A stretch of DNA of 64,000 nucleotides from a virus. The notes beneath the pieces were generated by a model. The model ran no database searches and had not been told where the DNA came from. It saw only the letters and a program-made list of their open reading frames with translations. The stretch is taken from positions 14,729 to 78,728 of IMG/VR virus record IMGVR_UViG_3300042503_000110; one strand, written 5' to 3'. Of the stretch, positions 34,757 through 60,344 are shown one piece after another. A program made the translations under genes and the position numbers. Each line of letters starts with the position of its first letter. Within the stretch, counting starts at the first letter, position 1.

Positions 34757-34773
34757 AATCCCTTGCTTTTTTT
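34744..34773 (+). terminator. Rho-independent terminator overlapping the next promoter
   Basis: GCAAGGGA-aataaaa-TCCCTTGC then T7. Confidence 0.75.
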
Positions 34774-34792
34774 GCTTTATAAAGTATATTTG
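34763..34792 (+). promoter_or_regulatory. Bacteroidota-type promoter for cargo genes
   Basis: TTG 34763-34765, N19, TATATTTG 34785-34792. Confidence 0.75.
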
Positions 34793-34853
34793 TAATTACC
34801 TATAATATAATGAGTTATTAACTTTTAATGTTATAACTATAAAAATTAATCCA

Positions 34854-37733: not shown

Positions 37734-37739
37734 CCAACT

Positions 37740-39407
37740 ATGATTTCGCATAAATCAAAAGGATTTGTATACCCAGAATATATCTCTCCGCTACCAGCAG
37801 ATGAGTTTATTAAAGGTGCGCTTCTTAAACAGAAGATGTACGATGAGGGTATTGACAAAGTACAACAACAATTAGATACCTACGGACAAATTCGCAAAGG
37901 TCTTTTGAAAGAAGAAGACAAGGCATACTTTGACCAAGAAGCAACTAAGCTAGTAAACGCATTAAATAAAAATGCGGGATTAGACTTTGCTAACAAAAAC
38001 AATGTCCGCTCTGCGTTATCTCTTGGAAACAATCTAGTTAATGACCCTATCATCTCTAACGCTGCGGAGTCTACTGCTACCTATAAAAAGATGATGGAAG
38101 AGTACAGCAAGTTAGATCCTAAAAACAGAAGTTCTGTAAATGACTACTTCTTTATGAAGGACATTAACAACTGGATGAAAGACGGCAAAACTGGTTCTAA
38201 ACTCAGATACAATCCTTATACTGTTTACACAGACGAGCACGTTAAATTATGGGGTGAACTATCTCAAAAATTAAAACCAGATGAAGTAGAAGTTCCTATG
38301 TTTGATGGTAAGAGTGGGGAGTGGATTGTTCAAAAGAAGTATTCGGGTGTAAGTGCAGAGCGTTTTAGAACTGCATATCTTAATGGACTAAGCGCACAAG
38401 CTAAAGCCCAGTTAGAGATGGAAGCACGTTACGTTTTTGAGACAGGAGATAGAGATCAAATAATGTCTCTTTATAACCAAGACGTAACTACCAAAATTAC
38501 TGCTTTAAATTTAGATATAGATAAAGCTACGACTCAACGTACTGAACTTGCGGGTAAATACGGAAACCAATCTCCTGAAGTACGTAAGGCAGATGAGCAA
38601 CTGAATCAACTTAGGGCTACTCAACGTTTCTACGAGGAGAAACAAACGGCTGAAATTAAAGACAACGATTTGATTACTTTCTTGAGAGATGATAAGATTT
38701 TTGACGCAGCAGGTGGTTTTGCTTACAAGAACGAAAGTACTAAACTTGAAGCTAATCCTTATGTAGTAGATATACGTAAGATGCAGAACAACATAGCTGA
38801 GTACAGAGCTAAAGCAGAAATTGATATTCTTAAAGAACAAGAACTTGTTAGACGTGGGTTAAAAGACGGTGCAGCTGTTGCTGGACTTAGTATGGGATCT
38901 TATTTACCTGATAGTCAGTATAACGGTAGTCCAGTTATTCAAGACCTTAATCCAATTTATGGCCAAACTAGAAGTACTCAAGAGGCTGGTTTAATCCAAA
39001 ACGGTCTTGTTAAATTTGCAGAAGGAAAAACTGTAAATGAAGCACTTCAAGCAATAATGGATGAAGGTAAAATATCAGGAGAAGACAGACGTGATATTAA
39101 TGAGATGTTCTTACCTTCTGGAGTTTTAGAAAGACTGCCAGTAGCAGAGCAACGTGCAAGACAAAAAAGAGGTGATAGATTAGTTGAAGAAATGTTTTGG
39201 AAGTTTAAAGGTATTTACGAAACCCTACAAGGAACTAGAACAATTACACAGGGAGAAGATACTTATAATCTAAAACCAACTGATACTGTTTCAGTTCTAG
39301 AAATGACTGGCGGGGTAAGAGATATGAGCGTTTCATCTCTATTAAATAGGGATGGAAGTTATTTATCTCAGATTAAAGAAATTAGAGTTAAGACATTAAA
39401 CAAGTAG
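37740..39407 (+). CDS. Internal virion cargo / ejection protein
   Basis: Helical, no Cys seen; YISPLP..KQKMYD N-terminus; synteny before the giant genes. Confidence 0.55.
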   Translation: MISHKSKGFVYPEYISPLPADEFIKGALLKQKMYDEGIDKVQQQLDTYGQIRKGLLKEEDKAYFDQEATKLVNALNKNAGLDFANKNNVRSALSLGNNLVNDPIISNAAESTATYKKMMEEYSKLDPKNRSSVNDYFFMKDINNWMKDGKTGSKLRYNPYTVYTDEHVKLWGELSQKLKPDEVEVPMFDGKSGEWIVQKKYSGVSAERFRTAYLNGLSAQAKAQLEMEARYVFETGDRDQIMSLYNQDVTTKITALNLDIDKATTQRTELAGKYGNQSPEVRKADEQLNQLRATQRFYEEKQTAEIKDNDLITFLRDDKIFDAAGGFAYKNESTKLEANPYVVDIRKMQNNIAEYRAKAEIDILKEQELVRRGLKDGAAVAGLSMGSYLPDSQYNGSPVIQDLNPIYGQTRSTQEAGLIQNGLVKFAEGKTVNEALQAIMDEGKISGEDRRDINEMFLPSGVLERLPVAEQRARQKRGDRLVEEMFWKFKGIYETLQGTRTITQGEDTYNLKPTDTVSVLEMTGGVRDMSVSSLLNRDGSYLSQIKEIRVKTLNK

Positions 39408-39416: not shown

Positions 39417-42400
39417 ATGGCAAAAAAAGTAGATAGTTCCTTTAACTTTTTAGGAATAGATCCTCGCCTAAATGTAGGAGATCCAAATGTTGTTAAAACA
39501 GCAGTTGATAGGTCAATCAACAGTGACCCTGTTTTATTTAATGCTTATCATACTAAAGAACTTGTAAGACCTAGATTAGATGAAATAAGAAGGCAAAATG
39601 AAATGGAGCGTCTGCGTAATGTAGACGTAAACTCTTTCAATTACCTAGCAAAGAAAGCAGGATACGATGAAGGTTATGCTGCTAGTCTTTTTAATCGAGT
39701 GCAGGACTTATCTTCTATGGAAACCCAAGAAGCTTTGGCAACTTACAGTGACCTGTTAGGAGAATTAAATGATCTAAAAGAACAGGCAACTACAGAACAG
39801 TTTGGAGGTATAGATAAATTAGCAGACTTTGGAGAGGGCTTTTTTGAGACAGCTAAAGGACTTACTAATCTTACTAATTCATTGTTTGGTGGTGAGGCAC
39901 AGTTTACTGACCCGTCAGAATATTTAGGTAAGAATAAAAATGATGTAATGGCGCAAAAGGCTTTAGATGAAGTCTTTACTCCTACAGAAATTTATAACTA
40001 CGCCAAAAGAGTTTTAGATCGCCAACACAAACAAATATCTATTAAGAAGTTCTCTCAAGAGAATGGAGGTGCAGACAAAATATTGAGTCTTATTGAATCC
40101 AAGAATCGTGACTTAACAAGCATGAATGGATTTGATGATTTGATTCTTCCTGTTTTAAATAATCAATTTACTACCCCTGGTTCTGACTATTTTAGAGGCG
40201 AAGGTGGTGACATGACCGCACAAGATGTTAGAGAGTTTCAGGATTACACTAAACAGCTTTTTACAACTGACCTAACTAAACGTAGTTCTTGGGGGTCTCA
40301 TATTGGAAATGACGGAATTGGTTATGGTAAGTATGATTTAGAGAAAGAGGCGCTTAATGACTACAAGTCTGTATTACAAGAAGAACTCTTTACTGTTGTA
40401 GATGAACGTAGAGGTCTTATAGATCAAGACAAACTAAAGAAAAACTCCAAAGAAGATTTGGTCTACCAAGGTAAGATAACCAGACTAAACTCTGCTTTAG
40501 ACAAACTTGTATCAAGAGAAAAGAATATTGACCAAGTATATGGAGTATCTGTAGGAGACCGTAGTGGTTTTCTTAGAGGTACTTTAGGTAGTGCCTATAT
40601 GGCTACTAGGGACTTTGCTACTTTTATTACTCCAGGATTTGATAGTCCAAAATTTGATATAGAGACACAACTTCTTAGGAATGCTATGTATAAACCAGAG
40701 GTTGTAAAGTACGACAAGTACGGAAACCCTGTTTTATCTAATCAAGTATTTTATGAGACTGCTTCTGGAAACAAAGCTAACTGGTCAGGTTTATTTGAGG
40801 CAGGTGGCGCAATGATTGGTGATATGACTCCTGCTATTCTTACAGGGGGTTTTGTTGCTCGTGCAGTAGGGGCAGGTCTATCATTAGCAGCTACAGAAGC
40901 CGCAGAGGCTACATTTGCCGCAAGAGCTGTATCCTCTACAGCTAAGGCTTACGATAAAGTAAACAGATACGGCAATCTAAGACTGGCAGATAGAGTCAGT
41001 ACTTTTGGTACAATCTACGGATCTACCAAGCCTAGAATCTATGAGCAAGAAAAGAAATGGGGTGGAGACGCAGAAGGTAGGGCAACCTATCTTGCTATTG
41101 CAGAAGCTGCCGCTGAGTCAATAGGTTTTCCAGATGTAGGAATGCTTAAGGTAACTCCTTATAGTAGAGGACTTGGCGCAGCTGCTAGGACTGCTACAGG
41201 AGTTAATCTTACACGTTCTCAGTTAGCAGGTGCTTATTTAAGAGGTGGTGCAGAATTTGCAAAGAACGCTGTTAAAGCAAACCTAGTAGAATCTTTTGAA
41301 GAAGAGATGTCTTTACTTGGTGAGACTTTAGTTAGCCAAGCTTATGCTGATGAATACGCTAAAGCAGGAAGAGAGCAGACTGAGTTTTCCGCAGAAAACA
41401 TTGTTGATACTTTTGTAGAGTCATTTAAAGGCGGACTTCTTTATAGTGGCTTAATGACTGGACAAAATCATTACAGAGCTACCCGTAAAGACGCACTCCT
41501 AGATCAAGCCGAATATGAGGCTGCACTTAACCCTGAATTATTTAAAGCTAAGTTAAAAGAGATTCACCAGAAAAACCCAGCTGAACTTTCTGAAAAACAA
41601 TTAGCAGATGGGATTGTAACTATAGATAATCTTTCTAACACATTTAAGGGTCTTTCTCAGCTAGAGAACTTAAGAGACTTAAATACTTTCTTTGAGGATG
41701 AAGAGTCTCGTAGAAGATTATTTACTGCTGCTAGACAACGTGATGTACTTCGTAGTATTGACTTTGATAGTTTAACGCCAGAACAACAAGAGGAGTTTAC
41801 TAAAGCAAAACTTTCAGGTAAGATTGCGAAAAACGCTACCAAAGAATATAATAAAGTACGTCAGCAGATTGCTAATCTTGTAACAGAAACCCAAGGTAAG
41901 AAGTTAACTCCAGAAGAATCAATTCAATTAATTGCCCTACAAGCCCAAGCTTTTAAATTAAAAGAAGTAACAAACACAATTGATTTAAGAAAATTAAATA
42001 ATTCTCAAATGGAGACACTGGCTTCTATGGGAATTATACAAGATAAAGACTTCCAGTTTACCCAAGAAGACTTGGATAAGATGATTGGGGAAGTTGATAC
42101 AGAAATTCTTAAAACTGAAAAGCGTGCATTTGAATATGCTTCTATGAGCAAAGCAGAAAAAGCAGAAGCCATTAAGAAAGCATACGAGAAGAAGATAGCA
42201 GAAATCAATCAAGTAGATGAGCCTAATGTACTTATGGAGTCTTTAATTAAACTTAAGAGAGACTATGAGTACCTAGAGAAGAATGTTCCAAACATTAATC
42301 CAGAAATCTTAGCTAACAAACAAGCATTGCTGGATGCGTTTGAACAAAAGTTCGACTCACTTACACAGAGAGATGAGTTTGGTAACAATGCTTTTGAAGC

Positions 42401-45400: not shown

Positions 45401-45785
45401 AGACTACAAAGTAGAATTAGTCCAGCAAGAAGACGGTACTTTCCAAGTTGCAAATATCTTTAATCCTGATGGCAAAAGTATTCCGCTCCAAACTGCTACG
45501 GGAATAAGTGTAATGATGTTATTAGATGACGAAGCTTTAGGTAAAAAAGATACAGGATTTATGAGTGTTAATGACTTGATGAATGCTGCTAATCAAACAC
45601 CACAAAGACCATCTGCTCCATCTAAACCTGCGCCTAAAACTCCTACAAATACTGTCTTTACTGAAGATGAATCTCAACAAGCTAAAGAGAACAAAGACAG
45701 TTGTGCTAAAGGATTAGGAGAGGTTCCTTCTTTCAAAAAAATTAATAATCAAGTTCCTACTGGGAACAGGATTCGCAAAAAATAG
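39417..45785 (+). CDS. Giant cargo/ejection protein with membrane-inserting segments
   Basis: 2122 aa; Gly/Ala-rich hydrophobic stretch at about 40790-40920; single Cys near the C-terminus. Confidence 0.6.
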   Translation: MAKKVDSSFNFLGIDPRLNVGDPNVVKTAVDRSINSDPVLFNAYHTKELVRPRLDEIRRQNEMERLRNVDVNSFNYLAKKAGYDEGYAASLFNRVQDLSSMETQEALATYSDLLGELNDLKEQATTEQFGGIDKLADFGEGFFETAKGLTNLTNSLFGGEAQFTDPSEYLGKNKNDVMAQKALDEVFTPTEIYNYAKRVLDRQHKQISIKKFSQENGGADKILSLIESKNRDLTSMNGFDDLILPVLNNQFTTPGSDYFRGEGGDMTAQDVREFQDYTKQLFTTDLTKRSSWGSHIGNDGIGYGKYDLEKEALNDYKSVLQEELFTVVDERRGLIDQDKLKKNSKEDLVYQGKITRLNSALDKLVSREKNIDQVYGVSVGDRSGFLRGTLGSAYMATRDFATFITPGFDSPKFDIETQLLRNAMYKPEVVKYDKYGNPVLSNQVFYETASGNKANWSGLFEAGGAMIGDMTPAILTGGFVARAVGAGLSLAATEAAEATFAARAVSSTAKAYDKVNRYGNLRLADRVSTFGTIYGSTKPRIYEQEKKWGGDAEGRATYLAIAEAAAESIGFPDVGMLKVTPYSRGLGAAARTATGVNLTRSQLAGAYLRGGAEFAKNAVKANLVESFEEEMSLLGETLVSQAYADEYAKAGREQTEFSAENIVDTFVESFKGGLLYSGLMTGQNHYRATRKDALLDQAEYEAALNPELFKAKLKEIHQKNPAELSEKQLADGIVTIDNLSNTFKGLSQLENLRDLNTFFEDEESRRRLFTAARQRDVLRSIDFDSLTPEQQEEFTKAKLSGKIAKNATKEYNKVRQQIANLVTETQGKKLTPEESIQLIALQAQAFKLKEVTNTIDLRKLNNSQMETLASMGIIQDKDFQFTQEDLDKMIGEVDTEILKTEKRAFEYASMSKAEKAEAIKKAYEKKIAEINQVDEPNVLMESLIKLKRDYEYLEKNVPNINPEILANKQALLDAFEQKFDSLTQRDEFGNNAFEAKLRELDVDKAITDYNIEDLVKLSRQLNFNKEHINEDLAELLGDQVSQAQAQIIENLNKLTGDAKVQALAKILDQTIKQNTITYFDKASFLKFLTYDKKFYDAQTNKLTRTETVSAAVSDEEFEKVRAEVIRQRGLRKSASMSTTGSVDNVSAPVDSQFQEDALRTMAKQAATASNQTDEDGTSPRSVLEKQYADSFLAGKTPAESVAALKDRIGQLLNAGSARATTLLNAFNNLLTSKDTVAFDSQLASLKAALKAEADSLRSKDRNSKAAQALDGVIAELGLWQNTAKKLLILNPATDFAPLVNITPPPVTPEVPPVVDLEEDDNTLTPNQIKSKQEEINKLDEVQKRRRSRLLDLTSPVRSNGIELDPKDQINQDPVVKRRVAFINDLASTPDAKIKIFNKKQFLREFLASKYPNKTSVEIEQDLKTIETFFAQLPKTTVDNWLTLENQAEILTPITDLLGTEFLDKGQVNYYVANKGAGLVTTPEVIMTAADNNGKIILKDGYPLELSFVADNNTGNNSKFADVPWKLSGRIQDESDNLTIKQGDVIDTHKQTFADKKAVKAYLEKNDTSIMGPFEISEGVLVTKGATSTTIADLENNPQLQSASIRDFALPTQKGTLIAGKQFKYNVGRLYYDNNGNPVLLGNNKLDTDEILAIAEIIYSSEEVIDPSELDAALFDLVNQINKDSKLVFFPTEPLMNTEGQYVYPQLLSPSKVTINEKGERKYKKLSKEEFIEEMKNSYYKASAAYLEGGTKFNQKITRFGMQNGKPVTYPQPYLEFIKETHTIPVNSEGEIVPLVNKIVYPSPSIFEEAKKTFKLSEDTKSQPPSKGSVSAKSNPVPPKNTKKSTDPAKTPVPNDVFNMIPFSELPAFLESLGLGALIPTYSEDTYNALLAEIQSNPSFTPFVFTKDGQGVMRSDYVGNNPQASFLRAAITLNGKTYFVYFRPGSHTTGVNIGAVMTEGNVSFTTQIPQPTQTQTLPEVPTTTGGKLENVRFQNKDYKVELVQQEDGTFQVANIFNPDGKSIPLQTATGISVMMLLDDEALGKKDTGFMSVNDLMNAANQTPQRPSAPSKPAPKTPTNTVFTEDESQQAKENKDSCAKGLGEVPSFKKINNQVPTGNRIRKK

Positions 45786-45794
45786 TAATTGAGT

Positions 45795-45802
45795 TATATT
45801 TG
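45795..45802 (+). promoter_or_regulatory. -7 promoter element upstream of the virion RNAP gene
   Basis: TATATTTG; imperfect -33 (TCG at 45773-45775). Confidence 0.6.
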
Positions 45803-45819
45803 TATTAAAACAATAAAAA

Positions 45820-51800: not shown

Positions 51801-54378
51801 TACATCTACTTCTATTTTCTCGCCTAGAACTTCTATTAAGATATTCAGAGAGAACGCTACTGGTAAGAAAGCCCTTGGTATTGATGCAAAGACAAATGCC
51901 TTGCATAAGCTGTTCCAACAGGTAGGATTGAAGTATACCGCATCTTTATCTAATCTTTATTTCTTAAAGTCCAATAAAGATAACGAGGGTAACATTATCC
52001 TAGGAGGTCTTTACGATGCAAACGGTGAGCACTTAATCTCAGATATTATTAACGAGTTTATTAACGGACACGTAGACATCGAGAAAGAAGAGTGGATTAA
52101 CTACTTTAACGCAGACAAGAATAGAACCAGCGTAATCCTACAAATGGTTCTTAGTGGAACTCCTATTAGGGATGCAGTGTTAATTGCTAACCAACCTATT
52201 GTTCAGCACTTCTTAAAGAACAGTAAGATAAGTCAGACTTCCGAACTTCTTTCAGCTAAAAGAGCAAACGTTATGTCTTACTTAGAAGCTGGACTTCGTA
52301 AGTTAAACTTAAATAAGTTTATTGTAAGAAATGAATTAGGGATTCCTCAAATCGGTCCTACTATTGCTAACATGTTGCAGGATGATTTATTTGCCAAACA
52401 TCTAAACAATCTATCTGAAGCAAACTATAGACCATCAGTTGAAAACAGTCGAGCAGCATACAACGATATGCTGGACAGTAACTCGTCTGACATTGCTGCG
52501 CAGTTAGTGTTCTTGAGCCAATACTATGTAGCTTCCGAGATGAATCAAAACTTACTTGACCTAACAAGTATTGTTGACTTTAACACAGCAAGTTATAGAA
52601 ACATCAACGACTTCTATCAGTTAGATAACTTGAAAGAGGTAGCTGAGAACTTTAACCAGGAAGCTGTAGATAAGATTTTAAACAATAGTGTACTATCTCC
52701 GTTCAATATAAGTAACCAAGCAATTTCTATAAGTGAGCAAATCTTTGATGTAATGGCTAGTAGAGAGTATCAGGCCATACTCAATAACTTTATAGAAGAC
52801 AATGGTAAATTCTGGACAGGAGATCAGCGTGTTTCTGAAGTAAACAACTTAAACAATGCTGTGGTACATGCTCTTATTCAGAAATACTCTGAACTCGACG
52901 GCCAAGATTTCTACAGTAAGTACGGACCTAAGTCTACATTCTTGACTAAAGGCGCTACTGGAAACTTATTTAGTGAGTACATTGCTTTGTTTACTAAAGG
53001 TTCTCAGATTGCAGATGCAAATCTTAAGAACTTTATGCGTAAAAATTTATTCTTAAGGAACTTCCGTAAGAAAGACGTAGAAGGAACTAAGAAATTTTAC
53101 ATAGCTACTCTTACTAACGAGAAGGATGTAGTCTATACCAATGCGATGCAACAGGCTTTCTCTGACGGATTGAACTATGATAAGTCAACTCCAGAGATAA
53201 ACGCTAGGGTTCGTAAGTTCTTTGATGATGTGGCCAATGCTACAATCGTAGGACAAGGTTTCTCTATTAAGTTTAGAAGTATACACCCTTATCTTCCCGT
53301 TGAAGCATTAGAGAGTGCCGCTCGTGCCTCTTTTGAGTTACGTAGGGTAAAAGATCTATTGTTCAGTAAAGAAGCAAAGGCACAGAGAAAAGAAGGCAAC
53401 GAAGAATTGAGAGAGTCTATGATTAAACTTCTTGAGTTTATTCAATCGGTTCAGAAGATTTATGCTCGTAATGCTTACTCGCCACGTAAGAAGTCACTTA
53501 ATACCTGGAAGTTTTTTCCTGACTACGTTAACTTAGCAGTAGATAAAGGTATTCGTATCTCTTCTAGTTTGAAGAATGGTCTAGGACTAGCTCTTTCTTT
53601 AGCTTCAGAAAAACATCCTGTTACCTTTAGAGGTAAAGAATTTAAAACAGCAGAAGAAGTATTTAAATCTTTTGCTGGTGTTTTTACAATTGCTGAGGAT
53701 AATAATGCCCAACTAGGACAAGTAACACTTCTTAGACAAATTCTTGGAGAACGTTTCAAGCAAAATTTATCTTTGTTTGCTGAGGTTTATAAGAAAGGCG
53801 GCTCAGAGTTTCTGCGTAAATCTACTTATTTCCAAGGAGCAGAGTTTTTAAGAAGCACACCTACTTCAATGGGTGGATACATAGAAGCTATCTCTAACGC
53901 ATATGACGATGTGTACGATGAGATGTTTGCTGCTATGTTAGAGGCTGAGGAGCAAGGACAAACTTTAACAACTGAAGAAACTAGTGCAGATGAGACTACT
54001 ACCTTAAAGGAAGATAGAAGCCCATTCTCTGAAGGAGACGGTGTTGACTTTGATAACTTAGGAGAGTTTACAGCTAAAGGAGTTAACCTTAACTCAACTA
54101 AACCTAAAGCTAAGTCAACTGGTCCTAAGCCTCCTAAATCTATAGAAGGTGAAGAAGTTTCTCCTACCCCTCCTAATTTAAACACAGAGGAAGTTCCTGC
54201 AGTAGAAATTCCCGTAGGACAACAAAGAGTTCTTATAACCTATCCCGAAGTAACAACTGAAAATTTACAGAGACTATATCCAGAATTAAGTGAAAAACAA
54301 ATTAACGTAGTTGCGAATAACTTAAGGCAGGTATTTAAAGGGAAATTTCCTGATGTAGATTTTGAATCTAAATGCTAA
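45820..54378 (+). CDS. Virion DNA-dependent RNA polymerase (single-chain, double-psi barrel) with N-terminal zincin domain
   Basis: RIPVQG...GSDFDIDKLF (DFDID 51184-51198) as in phi14:2 gp66; ADGQAY; HEAWH (46468-46482)...EEVLAEEF. Confidence 0.9.
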   Translation: MICPNFSNPQISKQFYDLAGVVGEDFAYFLWDKNDGLPLTLKVNPNNPAEVIPNPLYESLDEKFGGDFVKATLGTALTYGSTFKKANPKFNSFTPQQQADAISGYVNNLDISLEDATQNYIKKANTINRTFKRAYKNQEQVVAREDLRKDPNSVVNQVEDLTAEDRTAAYEFFKTNNLLNKISFKNAQGVVNSGAYAQWTKKGVTLYKGSDYTDLYHEAWHEFTQWFLTPQEKAILYGAVRAREGSVTLGDISVPYYALSQRQAEEVLAEEFRAFSIKKARNEKAENLEPKVKGFFERLYDWLQWLFYGAPKTNTPVETFNLQNVNSLFEAFYNGDISTTRKAADNIIEDSLNRSTAFSVPIVTDEGVKQRDIDPATGAEIISYVSYSIYKQMRDQKIGMSSLLNPETRAKIIPELYIAVRAEINDIIDKLEVDYEKAIAAGKEATASMIDEQMVNLIDLVNEDEAWQRVVDMHQISSQAQIFLVEEIDDTKDEKQDQQADNEPIEENTRNTVEYGDKSNVNPLDLYDPYVVELIKGMPDIIRSGDREIPSTGRNLGLPLNGDFQRNKNLLQNLLSGVTNYQQAIDTLVLASEQHPQLKYLIQLLPDPNAETLSLEETSLQAQFVQALSMPRIDPYSIKARETTELTNDGEVKNITFNTFYISTLTQDALLEYLDDEFQKSAVSDFKSEADQATSRQRQFVNKSISGLEFATFSTASLLDEYKITPESSDSLLFEFMDSAFGVDLYQGIDPQYLFDAKGNIKLSNSRYTKAERNALNKVSIATYNKVKLYHLINNLPKGIGKSMKDLIPARIETPAKTFIEDVKASLVKEIEGLNKVIEKTTKEEHKQALQEILDLYNSLIKGNNNLRNERQILFRSIENHYNKVVKSASYLNDENNLEWSIREWQHVVTQAAGLNQATSLADLTGHLSTSDFVANSRLINRAFDTETGSRISNRDGDNVLFELVNISGYSTKPEGKKTINLDPDDKLIQDLTAFIKDGIVENLRYGAKSTSLGLRTNGSRADRLFFDRSKFAYNEETGRIILDPQVITTFKNYLRYELSRMYDDRAESTAKEKRGFDLIILKDILGDRVESLKAMIKNSTEGKEATVESVLKTISGAEMNVRITDYFNNEINAFKQDLAEALNQGNVEAKGKKGKSLAEVFKEIYKQEQPLEVVLADYVTHYYTQQIEFLHLFVGDPSNFQIKGGNWRELFKRLGASISPGKQPIISQQLLRSWNNSTNGVLGRGLEKLYKQPKKQEPREYDGTFNYVQFKDVPSFTQDQHDIYREDLVNNYAEWLRSTDTKKLPIEAYRAKAEELFQKTIDGAEGQSKEADGQAYANLDFVRFYLNSIGEWFPKQEKAYQHELKVAAKIQEYRKNPTQELRSEVEDLIANANVGILVSLKLGYWGSPTNDPKYITLGKYSVAPLIPSALFDKDLESLMSDMLEKGVDFATFDSGNKMSLPVESIDFYTQEGQGAEERQVINKIPEANIVNFPMQGLRRQQYIAPKFKNEATLSTQLVKLIFSNFYVDGKFSSQYAVVPGLEDKINNLQAAFINNLQVIVETEKAKIYSAIGATLEGDAVTSIDVQKFADWVHKEFDKKDVPQSVYNYLQVENNRFKFSLDVAPQRALFESILSSALSKRVIRPKMFGEALIQVSSLGYNNLNTRYTKPSKSQVAKYGNSGLRDYGRIVNGKHQPAEVKVGFNPKKHAPLLKLQYKGEEILTVNRLNQALLDDEWVQQNSDRLTIVGVRIPVQGLNSMEHFRVKEFLPEVVGPVMIVPPSLVTKSGSDFDIDKLFMFEPQLDDDANLIRRKSTFIDNPKAVYDFVKLKKQTISELSELNSLLENKRQQFILTNTAESSESKTYEGLIASNGAIIRPLKNSKKELNEQKEGELFEKIALQATSLETFLETQKGDPEITALLKKIKSAKNLLLQLKDYSPASIKAGASNDLISNISEVLSEPAVMPAFLTPNDSPILRGLAEEYRDKYRSKEDKITSTSIFSPRTSIKIFRENATGKKALGIDAKTNALHKLFQQVGLKYTASLSNLYFLKSNKDNEGNIILGGLYDANGEHLISDIINEFINGHVDIEKEEWINYFNADKNRTSVILQMVLSGTPIRDAVLIANQPIVQHFLKNSKISQTSELLSAKRANVMSYLEAGLRKLNLNKFIVRNELGIPQIGPTIANMLQDDLFAKHLNNLSEANYRPSVENSRAAYNDMLDSNSSDIAAQLVFLSQYYVASEMNQNLLDLTSIVDFNTASYRNINDFYQLDNLKEVAENFNQEAVDKILNNSVLSPFNISNQAISISEQIFDVMASREYQAILNNFIEDNGKFWTGDQRVSEVNNLNNAVVHALIQKYSELDGQDFYSKYGPKSTFLTKGATGNLFSEYIALFTKGSQIADANLKNFMRKNLFLRNFRKKDVEGTKKFYIATLTNEKDVVYTNAMQQAFSDGLNYDKSTPEINARVRKFFDDVANATIVGQGFSIKFRSIHPYLPVEALESAARASFELRRVKDLLFSKEAKAQRKEGNEELRESMIKLLEFIQSVQKIYARNAYSPRKKSLNTWKFFPDYVNLAVDKGIRISSSLKNGLGLALSLASEKHPVTFRGKEFKTAEEVFKSFAGVFTIAEDNNAQLGQVTLLRQILGERFKQNLSLFAEVYKKGGSEFLRKSTYFQGAEFLRSTPTSMGGYIEAISNAYDDVYDEMFAAMLEAEEQGQTLTTEETSADETTTLKEDRSPFSEGDGVDFDNLGEFTAKGVNLNSTKPKAKSTGPKPPKSIEGEEVSPTPPNLNTEEVPAVEIPVGQQRVLITYPEVTTENLQRLYPELSEKQINVVANNLRQVFKGKFPDVDFESKC

Positions 54379-54387
54379 GTCTTGAAT

Positions 54388-54395
54388 TATATTTG
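54388..54395 (+). promoter_or_regulatory. -7 promoter element
   Basis: TATATTTG 15 nt before ATG 54411; no TTG at the canonical spacing. Confidence 0.55.
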
Positions 54396-54410
54396 TATAA
54401 CTAGAAAACA

Positions 54411-57400
54411 ATGCCTAAATTTTGTATAATTGATTTTAACAACCCTATGACTGGTAGAAGACACCCGTCTTTGATTGGCTATATGCTAAACAAACAGGGT
54501 GTTAGTGTAGATACTGTTACTGAATTACTTGACTCTGCTTACTCGACAATAACTTCAGATGGCACTAAACACTGGGGTTCTAACACTAGGGCGACTAGTG
54601 ATTTCTTAGAGCCACGTATCGGTGATTTTATAGACAACTTCGAGATGCAAGTTGCTCCTGCTGTTCTTGACGAGATTGAAAACGTACAAAGGTTCTATGA
54701 TTCTAAAAATCTAAACATAGGTTCAGACTTAAATTTAATTCAAGTTAAGGATATTGTTAAAGACGCACAAGATTACGGCATATCTTTAGAGGTAGAAACT
54801 ATTAATCCTGAGGATAAACCTTCAGATAGAATTTACAGAGTATTTCCTACAGAAATATCAGAGAAAAGTAATGACGCAACCAATACTTTTATCTACAGTC
54901 AGTTAGAAAACTACTACGAGCAAGTAGGTATGCCCAATGCCTTAAGTCAAGTAGGAACTTATGTAGACGTAGTGAATCCTTCAGTAGTAAATATGCTGAA
55001 GAATATCGTAAATGATCCTAGCACTTCTCAGTTTGAGAAAGACATTCTCAACTCAATGCTGGCTGTTCTTCCACAGTTTCCAGAAATCTCTGTAAACTTT
55101 ACAAAGGACTTGATGACTTCTGAGTTTAATCCTGAGAATATCGTTCCTGCCCGCTACGACTCTAAGACAAATACCATTACGTTTTATGTAGGGCCTCTTT
55201 CTGATATAGATGCTCCCCAATTTAGGCAACTATTTCTGCACGAACTTACACATGCTCTTTTCTCCTCTACGTTAAAGAATCCTCAGACCCAGGCTGAAAA
55301 AGTATTTGCTTCTGAAATAAAGAGAATCTACGACTACTATAAGAGTAAATATCCTAATGCAGCTTATGTAGGTCAATTCTACGGACTAACCAATGAGCAT
55401 GAGTTCTTGTCTGAGTTTTTTAGTAACCCAGAGTTCCGTGCTATTTTAGAACAAGAAGCGCCTCCTGTTTATGGTTCTGTGTTTCAATCCGTTTTAAATT
55501 TCTTTAAGAAAATCTTTGGCGGTTTCTTAGCAAATACCAATCGTACAGATGTTGACTATCTCAACAAACTTTCAGCCCACTTATTCAATAACATTCTTAA
55601 CACAGGTATAAACACTACTGAAGTCTACACTTCTGAAGATGCCTTTAACTACGAAGTTACAGATAAAGTTTACGATGACTTTTTAAAGAGTATGAGCTTA
55701 CCTGGTCAACAGTCACTTGACCAGTTCTATGCAGCTTTAGATAGTCTTTTAAATAATCCTAAGCTTAATTGGGACTCTATTTACAAACACGCTAATGCTA
55801 CAGGTATTCAAACCCAACGATTAAACATATCGCAGGAAGCATTAGAGAACCTTGAAGTAAACGCTATTATCAGAAGTGATCTCAAAACCTCTTTTAAAGG
55901 AGTAATGACTCACTTGACTGAGACCCACAGCTTCTTAAAAAACTTAACCACCAGTATTAAAGACTTAGAAAAAGACCAAGCCTTACCCGAGCATGAGTTA
56001 TTTTCTAGAGCATACCACGCTAAACTTATTGGACAACAGTATTTAGATTACATTGCAGACTTCAAAAGCTTAATGGATAATCCTAGTAGTACAAGTCCTA
56101 TGGGTAGAACTATTCTTAACATTGAAGCAGTTGCTCGTGAATTGACTTTAGGGTTTGATAACATTGCTGCTCCAGCAATTGCTTCTAAGTTTGCAGAATA
56201 TTTTTGGCCTCAGACTGAACAGTTAAAGAAAGAAATTACTGCTGAGATTGAAAGGCTTACAAAGATTAAAGAAACAGCAGAGCGTGCTGGCAATACTAAA
56301 AAGGCTACAGCAACTCAAAAACTATTAAACGCTGAGGTCGATAGACTTAAAAATCTAGCTACTAAAGAGAATCTAACACAAGCCCTTAAAGGTGTACTTA
56401 TTAATGGAGACTTAGGGTCTAATACTCTAGGATCTAAGTTAGGTGCATTTATAGAATCAGCCGCCTTGAGTGGTAACTTAGTTACTGGTACTTTGGCTGG
56501 ATTTGTAGATGACCTTTACTCGAAGTCAGGAGAAGAAGCATTAGTTCTTGAGAGAACTATGAAAGACCTTGCTACTAGACTGCAGAATCACTTACAAGCA
56601 CAGGGGAAGGTTGCTGTTACATCTTTAAACTTTGCTGATGTATTTGGTAAATATGTTAGAAAAGTTACAGTTAAGGAAATAAAAAACGTAGGCGGAGTGT
56701 TAGAATTATCTGACCGTCAAACTTATGTGTTCCAGACTGAGATGGATGAGGTTGGATACTTGAATCGACATGCAGAACTTAAGTACGAAATTACTAAACT
56801 AGATAACAAGCCTAACAAAGACGAGGCAGACATGCTAGAATTAGAACGTCGCATAGATGAGCTAGCTGCATTTGAGGACGAGCATTTAGAAAGTTTATAT
56901 ACTGATGAGTATCATCGTATACAAGGACTTCTTTCTGAACCTGCCCGTAAGGCACGTCAGAATATTATTGATGAGATGCGTAAGATACAAATTAACGCAA
57001 CTCAAGGAGACCAGACAGACGAAGATCTAGATCGCCTAGAGGACTTAAAGATTCAGTTAGATGAATTAGAAAATCCTTTTGGTAAGACTCCTGAGCAACA
57101 AGAGATTGCTTACAACATACAGGAGTGGAAACAGGCTAGGCAAAATGCTGAGTTGTACACTTACAGAATAACAGATGAGAGTCGTGCTATCTTCAATGAC
57201 TTCTTTGACAGTAAGAAAGCAAAGGTTACTGAATACAAATTAGCATTAGCTAACTTACTAGGTATACCTGACCCGCAGACATTCCCTGACCTAGACACAG
57301 AAATATCTCAGAGACTACAAACTACCAGTTCAGATAGAATTGAACTTGCTAAAGCGCAATTAAAAGTAGCTGAGAATGATTTACAGAAATTTAAAAGAAA

Positions 57401-60344
57401 CAACGTAGTAAAGAAGATTAAGCCAGAGTTCTATGAACAGCGTAACTTTATCCTAGAAGGGATAGAGAACATCCACTCTAAGTATAGAACTGATATGGAC
57501 AGTAAAGAGGCCATAGGTGACTTATATCGTGAACTATTTACTCTTTTAAAGGCATATAAAAATAGAGACGGTGAGTACGAAGGTTCTAAAGTTCCTACAG
57601 AGTTGGTTGAATACTTGACTGAAGACGGAGAACTTATTAGAGTTAGTGTCTCTACTCGTGTAAAAGACATCGAGAATAGAATTGACGCTATCCGCGACGA
57701 GATGACCCGTGGTGTTCGTATGTCTAAAGAAGACAAGGACAACTTGATAGCTTTGTTTAACCAGCTTGGAGAAATCCAGGAAAGAACTAGCACCGAAGAC
57801 TACAAAAGAATAGTTAAAATTGAGCAGGCAAAGGCACGTACAGCTGCTATTGCTGAGTTAGGAGACAAAGCTGCTAACATGACTAATGCTCAGATAAACA
57901 GAAAGATTCTTCAAACTTACTACAAGTCTGAGTGGTACAAACAAAACCACAGAGACTTCAAAGCGACTGGAGAAGGTAATCCTTTATTTCATTGGAGAGT
58001 TACCTTACCTACTAATCCTGCGTTTATCTCTGAGGAAGAACCTTCTTTCCGTTGGACTACCATCGAAGTAAATGATACAGTAGATCTCAACACAGGACAA
58101 CCACTTTACATCAACAAGGCTGTAAGAAACTTTAGATACAGTAAGCGAGTTCCTTTGAAGCGTACAAGTAGTTTTAGAAACAACGATTACTCCAAGTTAG
58201 ATGCTACTGAACGCCAAATTATTGGGGAAGTAGTTGCTCAATTAGGACAACTTGAAGACGGCTTGCCTGTAAAACTTAAGTTAGGAACTGAACTCCCTGC
58301 TTACATGAAGACTGGACTTGAAAGTCTTAATGGAAGAGTAGGTAATCTTAAAGACCAAATCAAAGGGGTTGCTTCTAACTTATGGGATAGAGCTACAGGT
58401 AAAGATCAGGAAGACCCTACAGATAACGTAAGTCTTTTAGATAAACTAAGTGGGAACAAATCTGAACTTAATAAGTACAGCGATAGAATCCATTTAAAAT
58501 ATGTGAGTCCTATTGAGCCAGAAAAGATGAGCATTAACTTCTTTGAGTCAATCACTCAATATGGAGCGGATGCTTTACGATTCAAAAACTTGTATTCAAA
58601 TATGGCTTACATTTTTGGTACAAGAGATTTAGTCAATAAGAATCTAGGCGGAACTACTACGGCCAACGTAGTTAACAACTTAATTGAACGTAAGATCAAC
58701 GGTAAATCCCGCGTATCTCTTACAGGAAACCCTATCTTAAATGCTATAGGATACGTAAGTGATAAAGCTATTGTAGGACTAACCGCTAAAGCAACTCTTT
58801 CTGTTAACTTACCTTCAGCTATTAAGAACTTCTTGGCAGGTAGTTACAACATATACACCCAAGCAGGTCGTTTCGGATTAAACCAAAAAGACATTGCAGT
58901 AGGTAAAGGAGTTGCAGCAACTCACCTAAAAGATTTTTACAGAGCAAGTATAGAAGATGGTGTATCAACTCCTTATATTCAGAAGGTAAGATACTTTAAT
59001 ATTATGCCAGACGATCACTTGAATGAAGTCGGCAAAAATATGTACCGCACTAGTCTAGATAAGACCGATAACTACAACTTATTTAAGATGTACGGCTTTA
59101 CTAGACAGGCTTTAGAATTTGAGATGCGGGTTGGTGTAGCTGAGGCTTTGTCTAAGCAGCACTTAATCGAGCTAAACAACGGACAGTTTGTGCCTATAAT
59201 GGACGCATACGAAACCAATAGTGGACTACTAGTTCCCCGTGCAGACATCAAAGATTTAGCAGGATTCTCTAATCAGGAAAGTTACTTTAAAGGTAGATTA
59301 AACTTAATCAACAGTTTGATTCACGGTGCTTATGGTGCTATGGACAAGGCTGAATATCAACGTTACGCTATTGGTCGTTTTATAATGATGATGCGTAACT
59401 GGTTTGGGTATCAGTGGTTGAGTAGATTTGGTTCACGCAGAATGTCCATCAGAGCAGGTATGGAATTTGAAGGTATGTACAGAACTATGTGGAACGTAGT
59501 AGGGTACAAAGGCAAGTTCTGGCAGCTCATGAGTTATTCTGCTACTTCAGACCTCTTAAGTAATAACGAGAAAGAAAACCTTAAAGGTGTTCTTCTTGAT
59601 ACTATGGGTATGTCGGTGATTATGGGTCTTAGTTACCTTGTCAGTCAAGCTGTTTACTCAGATGACGATGATGATGTAGATAATGCAATGGCTTATTTAG
59701 CATTGTACAACCTTCTTTACTTAGAGGACGAATTAAATACTCTCCACCCTATCTTTGGTCCAGCGGCTATTGGTTATGCGCGTATCGAGAATAAGGTAAG
59801 CGGGGACAACTTTGCTACTTATTACTTTAAGAAATACTTCACAGAACCTTTCCGCGTAACTCAAGATATTACCAGAGCAATGATAGAGTATTCTCCGATG
59901 GGAGATTTGGGAATGTTCGATGAGTATGTACCTTTAAGTAAGAACGGTAAGGTAATGAACCCTAATCGTTATAAGCCAGATCCTTTCTTACAAGGTATGC
60001 CTGACGTATTAGCTCGTACTCTTAAACTATTTGCGTTAGATAAATCAGTAAACTACGTAACAGGAAACCAAGAGTTTATGTACCGTAAGTATGATTACTT
60101 AAATCCTAAGTACTTTACTGAGTCTTACGAAAAAGAATTAAGACAGGCTAAAAGAGGACAGCGTTCTAACAAACTTGAGATAAAAGCAATCAAAGAAGAA
60201 ATAAACATTATTGAAGATCCAGATACCAAGGCTCTTCTTTATGAAAAAATTGATCGTCTTGAAAAAGAAATAGAAGCAGATAAAGAAAGACAAGAGATAT
60301 TACAACAAAACTATACAGACTACCAAGCTGCTGATAGGAAGTAA
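54411..60344 (+). CDS. Giant cargo protein with zincin-like domain
   Basis: HELTH (55239-55253)...YGLTNEHEFLSE; long helical body; hydrophobic segment at about 59586-59657. Confidence 0.7.
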   Translation: MPKFCIIDFNNPMTGRRHPSLIGYMLNKQGVSVDTVTELLDSAYSTITSDGTKHWGSNTRATSDFLEPRIGDFIDNFEMQVAPAVLDEIENVQRFYDSKNLNIGSDLNLIQVKDIVKDAQDYGISLEVETINPEDKPSDRIYRVFPTEISEKSNDATNTFIYSQLENYYEQVGMPNALSQVGTYVDVVNPSVVNMLKNIVNDPSTSQFEKDILNSMLAVLPQFPEISVNFTKDLMTSEFNPENIVPARYDSKTNTITFYVGPLSDIDAPQFRQLFLHELTHALFSSTLKNPQTQAEKVFASEIKRIYDYYKSKYPNAAYVGQFYGLTNEHEFLSEFFSNPEFRAILEQEAPPVYGSVFQSVLNFFKKIFGGFLANTNRTDVDYLNKLSAHLFNNILNTGINTTEVYTSEDAFNYEVTDKVYDDFLKSMSLPGQQSLDQFYAALDSLLNNPKLNWDSIYKHANATGIQTQRLNISQEALENLEVNAIIRSDLKTSFKGVMTHLTETHSFLKNLTTSIKDLEKDQALPEHELFSRAYHAKLIGQQYLDYIADFKSLMDNPSSTSPMGRTILNIEAVARELTLGFDNIAAPAIASKFAEYFWPQTEQLKKEITAEIERLTKIKETAERAGNTKKATATQKLLNAEVDRLKNLATKENLTQALKGVLINGDLGSNTLGSKLGAFIESAALSGNLVTGTLAGFVDDLYSKSGEEALVLERTMKDLATRLQNHLQAQGKVAVTSLNFADVFGKYVRKVTVKEIKNVGGVLELSDRQTYVFQTEMDEVGYLNRHAELKYEITKLDNKPNKDEADMLELERRIDELAAFEDEHLESLYTDEYHRIQGLLSEPARKARQNIIDEMRKIQINATQGDQTDEDLDRLEDLKIQLDELENPFGKTPEQQEIAYNIQEWKQARQNAELYTYRITDESRAIFNDFFDSKKAKVTEYKLALANLLGIPDPQTFPDLDTEISQRLQTTSSDRIELAKAQLKVAENDLQKFKRNNVVKKIKPEFYEQRNFILEGIENIHSKYRTDMDSKEAIGDLYRELFTLLKAYKNRDGEYEGSKVPTELVEYLTEDGELIRVSVSTRVKDIENRIDAIRDEMTRGVRMSKEDKDNLIALFNQLGEIQERTSTEDYKRIVKIEQAKARTAAIAELGDKAANMTNAQINRKILQTYYKSEWYKQNHRDFKATGEGNPLFHWRVTLPTNPAFISEEEPSFRWTTIEVNDTVDLNTGQPLYINKAVRNFRYSKRVPLKRTSSFRNNDYSKLDATERQIIGEVVAQLGQLEDGLPVKLKLGTELPAYMKTGLESLNGRVGNLKDQIKGVASNLWDRATGKDQEDPTDNVSLLDKLSGNKSELNKYSDRIHLKYVSPIEPEKMSINFFESITQYGADALRFKNLYSNMAYIFGTRDLVNKNLGGTTTANVVNNLIERKINGKSRVSLTGNPILNAIGYVSDKAIVGLTAKATLSVNLPSAIKNFLAGSYNIYTQAGRFGLNQKDIAVGKGVAATHLKDFYRASIEDGVSTPYIQKVRYFNIMPDDHLNEVGKNMYRTSLDKTDNYNLFKMYGFTRQALEFEMRVGVAEALSKQHLIELNNGQFVPIMDAYETNSGLLVPRADIKDLAGFSNQESYFKGRLNLINSLIHGAYGAMDKAEYQRYAIGRFIMMMRNWFGYQWLSRFGSRRMSIRAGMEFEGMYRTMWNVVGYKGKFWQLMSYSATSDLLSNNEKENLKGVLLDTMGMSVIMGLSYLVSQAVYSDDDDDVDNAMAYLALYNLLYLEDELNTLHPIFGPAAIGYARIENKVSGDNFATYYFKKYFTEPFRVTQDITRAMIEYSPMGDLGMFDEYVPLSKNGKVMNPNRYKPDPFLQGMPDVLARTLKLFALDKSVNYVTGNQEFMYRKYDYLNPKYFTESYEKELRQAKRGQRSNKLEIKAIKEEINIIEDPDTKALLYEKIDRLEKEIEADKERQEILQQNYTDYQAADRK

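What the first reader, a model, noticed from the sequence alone, without database searches (positions are those of the whole stretch)
39417..60344. Head-to-tail cysteine pattern: three giant cargo proteins may form a covalent ejection chain
Seen (by-eye scan): in 6951 aa of the three giant proteins I find only four Cys, all at adjoining ends. They are C2096 of 2122 in protein A (45702), C3 (45826) and the very last residue C2852 (54373) of the RNAP, and C5 (54423) of protein C. The outer ends (A N-terminus, C C-terminus) have none, and disordered Pro/acidic linkers precede both C-terminal Cys regions. Inference: A-RNAP-C are joined by two inter-chain disulfides (or metal bridges) in gene order. 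The membrane-inserting protein A could then lead the RNAP and protein C through the tail as one unfolded string, released in the reducing cytoplasm. I am not aware of this having been described.
Basis: partly seen in the sequence, partly recalled or inferred. Interest (0 to 1): 0.88.

Follow-up and report, generated by a model that had tools for sequence, protein, structure and literature searches.

The report
Terminal cysteines chain crAss cargo proteins
Three giant proteins that this crAss-like phage carries in its particle, its RNA polymerase in the middle, have no cysteine except one at each end that faces the next protein; relatives keep one such pair at every gene break and none where the genes are fused, which points to untested end-to-end disulfide bonds that string the proteins into one thread.

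Summary
Proteins A (2122 aa), B (2852 aa) and C (1977 aa) hold four Cys in 6951 residues: A C2096, B C3, B C2852 (last residue) and C C5. About 86 would be expected at the Cys frequency of the rest of the window.

The pattern is a conserved rule, not a quirk of this phage.
- In 80 related IMG/VR loci, all 152 junctions between consecutive cargo proteins carry a C-terminal Cys facing an N-terminal Cys. Outer ends carry none, and internal Cys make up 0.0045% of 510,867 residues.
- Trains of 1, 2, 3, 4 and 5 proteins carry 0, 1, 2, 3 and 4 pairs.
- Cut sites differ between lineages.
- The rule survives homing-endonuclease inserts and, in crAss001 and DAC15, a first gene on the opposite strand.
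- Cultured phi14:2, crAss001, DAC15 and Fpv1 obey it.

Cyanophage A-4L shows the same signature (gp27 single Cys 1715 of 1717, gp26 single Cys 5), and there the disulfide has been seen by cryo-EM (PMC12002296).

Best reading: two inter-chain disulfides make a 783-kDa head-to-tail thread. The bond itself and its role in ejection are untested. The idea that A inserts into a membrane has no support.

I found no paper that describes this for Crassvirales. This scan had already noted the same idea on other DNA (233 notes, at least 197 genomes).

The parts
39417..45785 (+). Protein A, 2122 aa, 235.5 kDa. First protein ('car') of the train. Function unknown. It sits in the position of crAss001 gp47 and phi14:2 GenBank gp078.
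   Evidence: ORF. Single Cys. Seven homologues each have one Cys, 22 to 28 residues from the C-terminus. No PHROG or Pfam hit. No detectable homology to phi14:2 gp078.
45702..45704 (+). Codon of A Cys2096, 27 residues before the C-terminus: proposed partner of B Cys3.
   Evidence: Invariant column C2096 in alignment A4.
45820..54378 (+). Protein B, 2852 aa, 322.3 kDa. Middle car: a zincin-like module followed by a two-barrel virion RNA polymerase.
   Evidence: Profile of the B family against the crystallised phi14:2 RNAP: hhalign probability 99.5%, E 1.3e-22, 1311 columns. tblastn hits to annotated Crassvirales RNAP genes. crAss001 gp50 matches PDB 6VR4 at E 6e-32.
45826..45828 (+). Codon of B Cys3 (N-terminus MICPN).
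   Evidence: C3 and P4 are invariant in alignment A2. A Cys at residue 3 to 7 is present in most of the 93 B homologues.
46468..46482 (+). HEAWH (B residues 217-221), the zincin-like HExxH motif.
   Evidence: The module aligns to the C-terminal end of crAss001 gp47 (E 1e-5) and to cr50_1 residues 1640-1716 (E 7e-10).
51184..51198 (+). DFDID (B residues 1789-1793), the catalytic Asp triad of the RNAP.
   Evidence: D1789, D1791 and D1793 are invariant in 48 homologues.
54373..54375 (+). Codon of B Cys2852, the last residue: proposed partner of C Cys5.
   Evidence: Conserved in at least 90% of 48 divergent homologues and invariant in alignment A2.
54411..60344 (+). Protein C, 1977 aa, 225.6 kDa. 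Last car, with a second HExxH module (HELTH at residues 277-281, bases 55239-55253).
   Evidence: Of the 14 homologues listed, 13 have a Cys at residue 5 or 3; the fourteenth (P0105, 1674 aa) has none and begins inside the family, so it looks truncated. H277, E278 and H281 are invariant.
54423..54425 (+). Codon of C Cys5.
   Evidence: Invariant column C5 in alignment A3.
31301..39407 (+). Upstream Cys-free cargo-like ORFs: 126 aa (DUF5856), 296 aa, 509 aa (LysM plus SLT lytic transglycosylase), 959 aa and 555 aa. They are not part of the chain. Among them lies the 156-aa DUF6321 ORF (34112-34582), which has two Cys.
   Evidence: In related loci the two ORFs upstream of the train also have no Cys.
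45794..45805 (+). TTATATTTGTAT, a promoter-like 12-mer that contains TAnnTTTG, 9 nt after A's stop. Exact copies also lie at 54387-54398 and 60370-60381.
   Evidence: All three exact copies lie just after the stops of A, B and C.

Best explanation
The region is the cargo (ejection-protein) block of a distant crAss-like phage. B is the virion RNA polymerase, preceded by a zincin-like module. A and C are its flanking giant virion proteins. These proteins are kept free of cysteine, except for one 'coupler' Cys at each end that faces the next protein. Inside the particle, A Cys2096 bonds to B Cys3, and B Cys2852 bonds to C Cys5. The result is one 6951-residue (783 kDa) head-to-tail thread with the polarity of a single polypeptide: the post-translational equivalent of the fused polyprotein found in some relatives.

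The stubs beyond each bond are short, and no other Cys is present. The thread therefore stays unbranched, so it could pass partly unfolded through the tail after the Cys-free channel-forming cargo. The host's reducing cytoplasm would then separate the three proteins.

Shown here: the Cys map, its conservation, the rule of one pair per gene break, and the RNAP identity of B. Shown elsewhere: the same signature is a real disulfide in phage A4, and disulfides exist in crAss001 virions. Inferred: that the bond forms in crAss-like particles, that the chain is linear, and that it serves ordered ejection and is released by reduction.
For: - Cys map: exact.
- B family: 93 homologues of 1787-4971 aa, down to 21% identity. 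Nearly all have 1-3 Cys, with one at residue 3-7 and one in the last 1-7 residues. The C-terminal Cys is kept in at least 90% of 48 divergent sequences.
- A family: a single Cys 22-28 residues from the C-terminus. C family: a single Cys at residue 5 or 3.
- 80 IMG/VR loci: 152 of 152 junctions are paired; 306 terminal against 23 internal Cys in 510,867 aa; no unpaired outer end.
- Adjacent-gene table: both Cys present 148, neither 85. The 16 discordant pairs are all Cys-rich ORFs outside the train, GIY-YIG inserts between cars, or one mis-set start.
- Number of pairs = number of proteins minus one, from 1 protein (P0063, 4424 aa, with both HExxH modules and DYDID, 0 Cys) to 5 proteins (L065).
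- Cut sites differ. The A|B break lies upstream of the zincin-like module here, downstream of it in crAss001, p-crAssphage and crAss002, and is absent in cr50_1.
- On an RNAP-core tree, an extra protein after B appears or disappears at least 10 times.
- The rule holds when the first gene is on the opposite strand (crAss001 gp47, DAC15 gp078) and across endonuclease inserts, so it acts on the proteins, not on junction DNA.
- phi14:2: three virion proteins proven by mass spectrometry have Cys at -1; at 3 and -2; and at 3.
- A-4L: gp27 has a single Cys 1715 of 1717 and gp26 a single Cys 5. Their disulfide is seen by cryo-EM (PMC12002296).
- crAss001 virions hold disulfides in the tail and portal vertex, and gp47, gp49 and gp50 are cargo by mass spectrometry (PMC10172136).
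- One thiol per end is too few ligands for a zinc site, which favours a disulfide (inference).
Against: - No experiment shows the bond in any crAss-like phage.
- The cytoplasm in which particles assemble is reducing, and the gut is anoxic, so when and whether the bond forms is unknown.
- Sequence cannot separate a linear chain from a cyclised middle protein plus a first-to-last link.
- In this clade A's Cys lies 22-28 residues from the end, a longer stub than elsewhere.
- In Intestiviridae the rule is looser. p-crAssphage gp44 has 7 internal Cys and cr271_1's last protein 15. p-crAssphage gp47 (Cys at -2) and crAss002 gp30 (Cys at -8) each carry a C-terminal Cys with no partner at the N-terminus of the next gene product.
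- In this window the 156-aa DUF6321 protein ends in an unpaired Cys.
- No homology links these proteins to A4 gp26, so A4 is a parallel, not a relative.
Confidence: 0.6

Rival explanations
1. The head-to-tail Cys pairs form as proposed, but their role is structural. They lock a folded, ordered internal core (a pre-ejectosome) and fix a 1:1:1 ratio of the RNAP module in the capsid. They do not serve to pull an unfolded thread through the tail.
For: In phage A4 the gp27-gp26 disulfide stabilises a folded 'mortise-and-tenon' pre-ejectosome, with a C-terminal helix docked in a cleft. crAss001 cargo proteins are predicted to be folded and helical, and are thought to lie in a capsid cargo zone.
Against: The strict removal of every other Cys, and the very short stubs (0-4 residues after the C-terminal Cys in 116 of 133 distinct tails; N-terminal Cys at residue 3-5 in 111 of 117), are what an unbranched thread needs. 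A static lock would not need them. The two roles do not exclude each other.
Confidence: 0.2
2. Different topology: each middle protein closes on itself through its own N- and C-terminal Cys, and the first and last proteins pair with each other (A with C).
For: Counting Cys fits this as well as it fits a chain. A fusion of two middle proteins would also keep only the outer pair.
Against: Two-protein trains (cr50_1, cr114_1, crAss002, Fpv1, L042, L053, L072) can only pair between proteins. In A4 the observed bond joins the products of adjacent genes. A closed loop of 2000-4000 residues would have to pass the tail doubled over. The model also needs two kinds of pairing where one suffices.
Confidence: 0.07
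3. The facing Cys pair up without a disulfide, for example through a bridging metal ion or another thiol chemistry.
For: The particles assemble in a reducing cell. B and C carry HExxH modules, so metal is present in the system.
Against: There is only one thiol per end, and no conserved His or second Cys beside it, which is too few ligands for a stable zinc site. The only solved example of this signature is a disulfide.
Confidence: 0.07
4. No pairing between neighbours. Either the terminal Cys are left over where selection against Cys is weak (floppy ends), or each Cys bonds to a second copy of the same protein or to another virion part.
For: Suppression of Cys in ejected proteins is known without any terminal Cys (Schitoviridae, PMC11445570). 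A few unpaired terminal Cys exist (p-crAssphage gp47, crAss002 gp30, the DUF6321 ORF here).
Against: Weak selection would also put Cys at the outer ends and would not conserve them. Instead, facing ends have a Cys at 152 of 152 junctions, no train has an unpaired Cys at an outer end, and each new gene break brings a new pair. Same-protein dimers would not need the facing-ends rule.
Confidence: 0.04

Closest known systems
Cyanopodophage A4 / Anabaena phage A-4L ejection proteins gp27 and gp26: Cys1715-Cys5 disulfide in the pre-ejectosome (PNAS 2025, PMC12002296)
   Same: Two large ejection proteins from adjacent genes. The upstream one has a single Cys 3 residues from its C-terminus and the downstream one a single Cys at residue 5 (my own count). 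The head-to-tail disulfide is seen in the virion.
   Different: A4 has one junction only, reported as a structural detail of a folded pentameric core. It was not described as a rule, as a multi-protein train, or as involving an RNA polymerase. No sequence homology to the C family was detected (hhalign probability 0.2%). The phage family (Saffermanviridae) and the host are different.
RNAP module of cultured crass-like phages: phi14:2 gp66 RNAP (PDB 6VR4) with its two flanking virion proteins, and crAss001 cargo proteins gp47, gp50 and gp49
   Same: B is homologous to the RNAP. The trio is virion-packaged and is fused into one polyprotein in some phages (bioRxiv 10.1101/2020.03.07.982082). The terminal-Cys pattern is the same.
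   Different: The papers I read do not mention the Cys pattern or any covalent link between these proteins. Here the break between A and B lies upstream of the zincin-like module rather than downstream of it. A shows no detectable homology to phi14:2 gp078.
Cys-free ejection proteins of Schitoviridae (N4 gp50, DEV gp71 to gp73)
   Same: A giant virion RNA polymerase and its co-ejected proteins with strongly suppressed Cys. This has been explained by passage through the periplasm, where disulfide-forming enzymes act (PMC11445570).
   Different: Those proteins have essentially no Cys at all, terminal ones included. The polymerase is a T7-like single-subunit enzyme, unrelated to the two-barrel enzyme here (PMC13434306).
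Polyvalent proteins of phages and conjugative elements (the concept behind the Pfam family ART-PolyVal, PF18760; the concept is cited from my own knowledge)
   Same: Very large multi-domain proteins delivered with the DNA, with swappable effector domains. ART-PolyVal occurs in the extra cars of L009 and L028, and fused to B or C homologues.
   Different: Polyvalent proteins are described as single polypeptides. Here the modules are often separate gene products that carry Cys couplers.

Membership tests
Two-barrel virion RNA polymerase of crAss-like phages (phi14:2 gp66, PDB 6VR4) | Catalytic DFDxD motif | tested here: met
   DFDID at B residues 1789-1793. All three Asp are invariant in 48 homologues.
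Two-barrel virion RNA polymerase of crAss-like phages (phi14:2 gp66, PDB 6VR4) | Sequence homology to the crystallised enzyme | tested here: met
   hhalign of the B-family profile against the phi14:2 RNAP: probability 99.5%, E 1.3e-22, 1311 columns. A direct HMM search of PDB found nothing; crAss001 gp50 bridges the gap.
Two-barrel virion RNA polymerase of crAss-like phages (phi14:2 gp66, PDB 6VR4) | Two double-psi beta-barrel fold | not tested
   No structure was predicted; B exceeds the 1200-residue limit.
Two-barrel virion RNA polymerase of crAss-like phages (phi14:2 gp66, PDB 6VR4) | Packaged in the virion and ejected into the host | not testable with these tools
   Only context is available. 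The gene lies downstream of terminase, portal, major head protein and a 2058-aa structural protein, and the orthologues in phi14:2 and crAss001 are virion proteins by mass spectrometry.
Disulfide-coupled ejection proteins (phage A4 gp27-gp26 type) | A lone Cys near the C-terminus of the upstream protein facing a lone Cys near the N-terminus of the next | tested here: met
   A at -27 facing B at 3, and B at -1 facing C at 5. A-4L has gp27 at -3 facing gp26 at 5.
Disulfide-coupled ejection proteins (phage A4 gp27-gp26 type) | The disulfide is observed in the particle | not testable with these tools
   It needs gels, mass spectrometry or cryo-EM of virions.
Disulfide-coupled ejection proteins (phage A4 gp27-gp26 type) | Common descent with gp26 and gp27 | tested here: not met
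   hhalign of the C family against A-4L gp26: probability 0.2%. I therefore treat A4 as working alike, not as the same family.
Cys-suppressed ejection proteins (as in Schitoviridae) | Cys frequency far below that of the phage's other proteins | tested here: met
   0.06% in the block 31301-60737 against 1.24% in the other ORFs of the window.
Zincin-like metallopeptidase module | HExxH motif conserved in the family | tested here: met
   B H217, E218 and H221 are at least 90% conserved. C H277, E278 and H281 are invariant.
Zincin-like metallopeptidase module | Match to a curated peptidase family or fold | tested here: inconclusive
   No Pfam or PHROG family. The only PDB hit for the C profile is weak: 8VB2 'tetrameric ejection protein gp48', E 0.008.

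The most novel reading that the evidence does not exclude
Crass-like phages use a modular, disulfide-coupled 'cargo train'. Any protein that carries an N-terminal and a C-terminal coupler Cys can be spliced into the thread and is injected in a fixed order with the RNA polymerase. Examples are the ART-PolyVal ADP-ribosyltransferase cars of L009 and L028. Gene fission and fusion are interchangeable, because a disulfide replaces the peptide bond, so the number of coupler Cys equals twice the number of proteins minus two. The reducing cytoplasm acts as the release switch. If so, Cys placement alone would give the composition and order of the injected proteins for uncultured members of the commonest human gut phages.
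Probability: 0.4. Interest if true: 0.88.

Novelty: new variant of a known kind. Interest (0 to 1): 0.78.

Why it matters
Crassvirales are the most abundant phages of the human gut. How their five or so cargo proteins, a roughly 280-kDa RNA polymerase among them, are ordered and pushed through the tail is openly stated as unknown (PMC10172136; PMC13434306, 2026).

A conserved end-to-end covalent tether would give a concrete and cheaply testable mechanism for ordered delivery, for equal amounts of each protein, and for redox-triggered release. It would explain why the same module occurs as one, two, three, four or five genes. It would also give a sequence-only rule with three uses:
- recognising which proteins are injected;
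- predicting the order in which they are linked;
- correcting start codons (crAss002 gp33, for example).

It would turn a single structural detail seen in phage A4 into a general principle.

Tried and rejected
- Complex prediction. A second request with the window's own pieces (C residues 1-600 and B's last 133 residues) gave 'no answer', score 0.00. This counts neither for nor against binding.
- Searches that found nothing for A, B and C: PHROGs, Pfam and PDB sequence searches gave no usable family; megablast against phages gave nothing.
- hhalign of the A family against phi14:2 gp078: no homology.
- hhalign of the C family against A-4L gp26: no homology.
- BLAST of first-car proteins against the long proteins that lack an N-terminal Cys (L042, L053, L072): no hit. 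I therefore cannot say whether A is fused there or missing. I can only say that those proteins have 1000-1900 extra N-terminal residues and that the ORF upstream has no Cys.
- L006 against L009. I expected a simple fusion of B with the 328-aa car. In fact only the last 22 residues, which hold the coupler motif, are shared, and the region before them is variable.
- Hydropathy scan for membrane helices: none in A, B, C or the Cys-free ORFs.
- Thioredoxin and glutaredoxin families: absent from this 66%-complete record.
- My small module HMMs were too insensitive to class the cut sites in all 80 loci, so the cut-site argument rests on the named phages.
- One treekit run did not return. I replaced it with MAFFT, FastTree and Fitch parsimony.
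- Explanation from junction DNA or coupled translation: rejected, because of the first genes on the opposite strand and the endonuclease inserts.
- Native-chemical-ligation-like joining: rejected, because the N-terminal Cys is never at residue 2.
Full report
**What is there**

The window is part of a 78.7-kb IMG/VR virus record that is 66% complete. All genes lie on the + strand. In order they are a large terminase, a portal, a major head protein and a 2058-aa structural protein with 30 Cys, followed by a block of ORFs from 31301 to 60737 that is almost free of cysteine.

The last three ORFs of the block are A (39417-45785, 2122 aa), B (45820-54378, 2852 aa) and C (54411-60344, 1977 aa). The other ORFs of the window hold 1.24% Cys, which predicts about 86. 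The chance that four Cys fall one in each facing 30-residue end window is about 8e-9.

**What the proteins are**

- A, B and C have no usable PHROG, Pfam or PDB sequence match.
- B carries an invariant DFDID (1789-1793) and a conserved HExxH (217-221).
- B hits the annotated RNAP genes of crAss001, p-crAssphage and other Crassvirales by tblastn.
- crAss001 gp50 matches PDB 6VR4, the phi14:2 virion RNAP, at E 6e-32.
- The B-family profile aligns to that crystallised protein with hhalign probability 99.5% over 1311 columns. B is therefore the virion RNA polymerase with a zincin-like module in front.
- C has a second invariant HExxH.
- A has no detectable relative of known function.
- None of the three has a hydrophobic helix by a Kyte-Doolittle scan, so 'membrane-inserting A' is unsupported.
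- The upstream Cys-free ORFs include a LysM plus SLT lytic transglycosylase. That is typical of ejected proteins.

**The pattern is a conserved rule**

- B homologues: of 93 (1787-4971 aa, down to 21% identity), nearly all have only 1-3 Cys, one at residue 3-7 and one in the last 1-7 residues.
- A homologues have one Cys, 22-28 residues from the C-terminus. C homologues have one, at residue 5 or 3.
- I fetched 80 loci from IMG/VR with the B alignment and mapped the ORFs. In every locus the first protein of the series has only a C-terminal Cys, the middle proteins have one at each end, and the last has only an N-terminal Cys.
- Counts: 152 of 152 junctions are paired. 510,867 residues hold 306 terminal and 23 internal Cys.
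- Over all adjacent gene pairs, 148 have both Cys, 85 have neither, and 16 are discordant. The discordant pairs are all Cys-rich small ORFs outside the series, GIY-YIG homing endonucleases inserted between two cargo genes, or one mis-set start.
- The N-terminal Cys sits at residue 3, 4 or 5 in 111 of 117 distinct N-termini, and never at residue 2. In 116 of 133 distinct C-terminal tails, 0-4 residues follow the Cys.

**One pair per gene break**

- Series of two, three, four and five proteins carry one, two, three and four pairs.
- P0063 unites both HExxH modules and the DYDID motif in one 4424-aa protein and has no Cys at all. In its relative L093 the ORFs upstream are also Cys-free.
- Where the RNAP protein lacks the N-terminal Cys (L042, L053, L072, Fpv1, cr50_1, cr114_1), the ORF upstream has no Cys.
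- The breaks lie at different places. The zincin-like module is at the N-terminus of B here, at the C-terminal end of the first protein in crAss001, p-crAssphage and crAss002, and internal in the fused cr50_1 protein. In Fpv1 an HExxH motif follows the RNAP motif in the same protein.
- An extra protein after B (170-1146 aa, of at least eight unrelated kinds) appears or disappears at least 10 times on an RNAP-core tree. This was a quick FastTree tree, so treat the number as rough.
- Two of the extra proteins are ART-PolyVal ADP-ribosyltransferases. The same domain is fused to B or C in other homologues.

**It acts on the proteins, not on the DNA**

In crAss001 and DAC15 the first protein (gp47, gp078) is encoded on the opposite strand, away from the start of the RNAP gene, yet it keeps its lone C-terminal Cys. 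Endonuclease genes that split a series do not disturb the rule. cr114_1 reads TAG as a sense codon (69 in-frame TAG in gp021) and still obeys it.

**Cultured phages**

| Phage | First protein (Cys) | RNAP protein (Cys) | Last protein (Cys) |
|---|---|---|---|
| phi14:2 (all three are MS-proven virion proteins) | gp078, 1797 aa (-1) | gp077, 2180 aa (3, -2) | gp076, 1421 aa (3) |
| crAss001 | gp47 (-3) | gp50 (5, one internal, -9) | gp49 (5) |

The three crAss001 proteins are the 'RNA polymerase-associated' cargo found by mass spectrometry (PMC10172136). That paper reports disulfides in the tail and at the portal vertex. [quoted passage not shown] A 2026 paper on N4 still calls the crassvirus ejection proteins unresolved. 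Six full-text searches found no description of the pattern for Crassvirales.

**Precedent**

I checked it. The paper shows by cryo-EM a disulfide between Cys1715 of gp27 and Cys5 of gp26, with the C-terminal helix of gp27 docked in a cleft of gp26 (PMC12002296). In the A-4L genome gp27 (1717 aa) has that one Cys and gp26 (1114 aa) has that one Cys, and the genes are adjacent. This is the same sequence signature, and there it is a real bond. I found no homology between gp26 and the C family, so A4 is a parallel, not a relative. Suppression of Cys in ejected proteins is itself known (N4 and DEV), but those proteins have no terminal Cys.

**Reading**

The most economical account of a lone Cys at each facing end, gained with each gene break and absent from fused forms, is a pairwise covalent link between consecutive gene products. 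One thiol per end points to a disulfide rather than a metal site.

Joining C-terminus to N-terminus keeps the polarity of a single chain. The short stubs and the absence of other Cys keep it unbranched. This fits passage, partly unfolded, through a tail whose constrictions are under 50 Å, followed by release in the reducing cytoplasm.

These last steps are inference. A structural lock of a folded core, as in A4, is equally compatible with the pairing.

Not excluded: cyclised middle proteins plus a first-to-last link, or a non-disulfide link.

Weak points:
- the reducing site of assembly and the anoxic gut;
- the looser pattern in Intestiviridae, with many internal Cys in the last protein and an unpaired C-terminal Cys in p-crAssphage gp47 and crAss002 gp30;
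- the unpaired last-residue Cys of the DUF6321 ORF in this window.

**Standing**

I class it as a new variant of a known kind, in that a published single junction in A4 is generalised to a multi-protein, order-wide rule that includes the virion RNAP.

The same idea has been raised by this scan on many other genomes (233 notes in at least 197 genomes). This window is one more instance, not an independent discovery.

Noticed in passing
window 45794-45805, 54387-54398, 60370-60381 (+): Three exact copies of TTATATTTGTAT lie 9, 9 and 26 nt after the stops of A, B and C. They are the only exact copies in the window. The 12-mer contains the Bacteroidota -7 promoter box TAnnTTTG, so B, C and the next gene may each have their own promoter. 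With one mismatch allowed, 4 matches were found against 1.0 expected.
   Followed up: partly
window 34112-34582 (+) and 34607-34756 (+): A very basic 156-aa DUF6321 protein lies inside the otherwise Cys-free block. It has Cys125 and a Cys as its last residue, with no partner at the start of the next large gene. A 49-aa, very basic ORF follows it. These may be DNA-associated internal proteins.
   Followed up: partly
window 32586-34115 (+): A Cys-free 509-aa protein with LysM and SLT lytic transglycosylase domains: probably an ejected cell-wall hydrolase.
   Followed up: partly
L009:18541-19524 and L028:18087-21524: Extra cargo proteins that carry both coupler Cys contain an ART-PolyVal ADP-ribosyltransferase domain (PF18760). 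These are effector-like passengers in the series.
   Followed up: partly
L028:21521-22165, L048:12361-13047, L066:7118-7639: GIY-YIG homing endonuclease genes are inserted between two cargo genes. The Cys rule holds across them.
   Followed up: yes
L090 (crAss002) 16299-29036: The annotated start of gp33 puts the Cys at residue 35. Met33 would give an N-terminus MSC..., like other members, so the annotated start is probably 32 codons too early.
   Followed up: partly
P0063 and L093:9451-20457: A 4424-aa protein unites both HExxH modules and the RNAP motif and has no Cys at all. It is a one-protein version of the series. Its downstream neighbour could not be read because the contig ends.
   Followed up: partly
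window: C-termini of ORFs ending at 34115, 37733, 45785 and 60344: Several cargo proteins end in short basic tails (…YKKYKRK, …KKKKGFRKK, …NRIRKK, …AADRK), and relatives do too (…GMYKKSKK). This may be a shared packaging or DNA-binding tag.
   Followed up: no
L004:18602-25484: The C homologue is split into a 204-aa ORF (Cys 5) and a 1780-aa ORF, separated by about 900 nt. This could be an intron or insert, or an assembly error.
   Followed up: no
L084 (p-crAssphage) gp47 and L090 (crAss002) gp30: In Intestiviridae a smaller cargo-block protein keeps a lone Cys 2 or 8 residues from its C-terminus, with no N-terminal Cys in the next gene product. Its partner, if any, is unknown.
   Followed up: no
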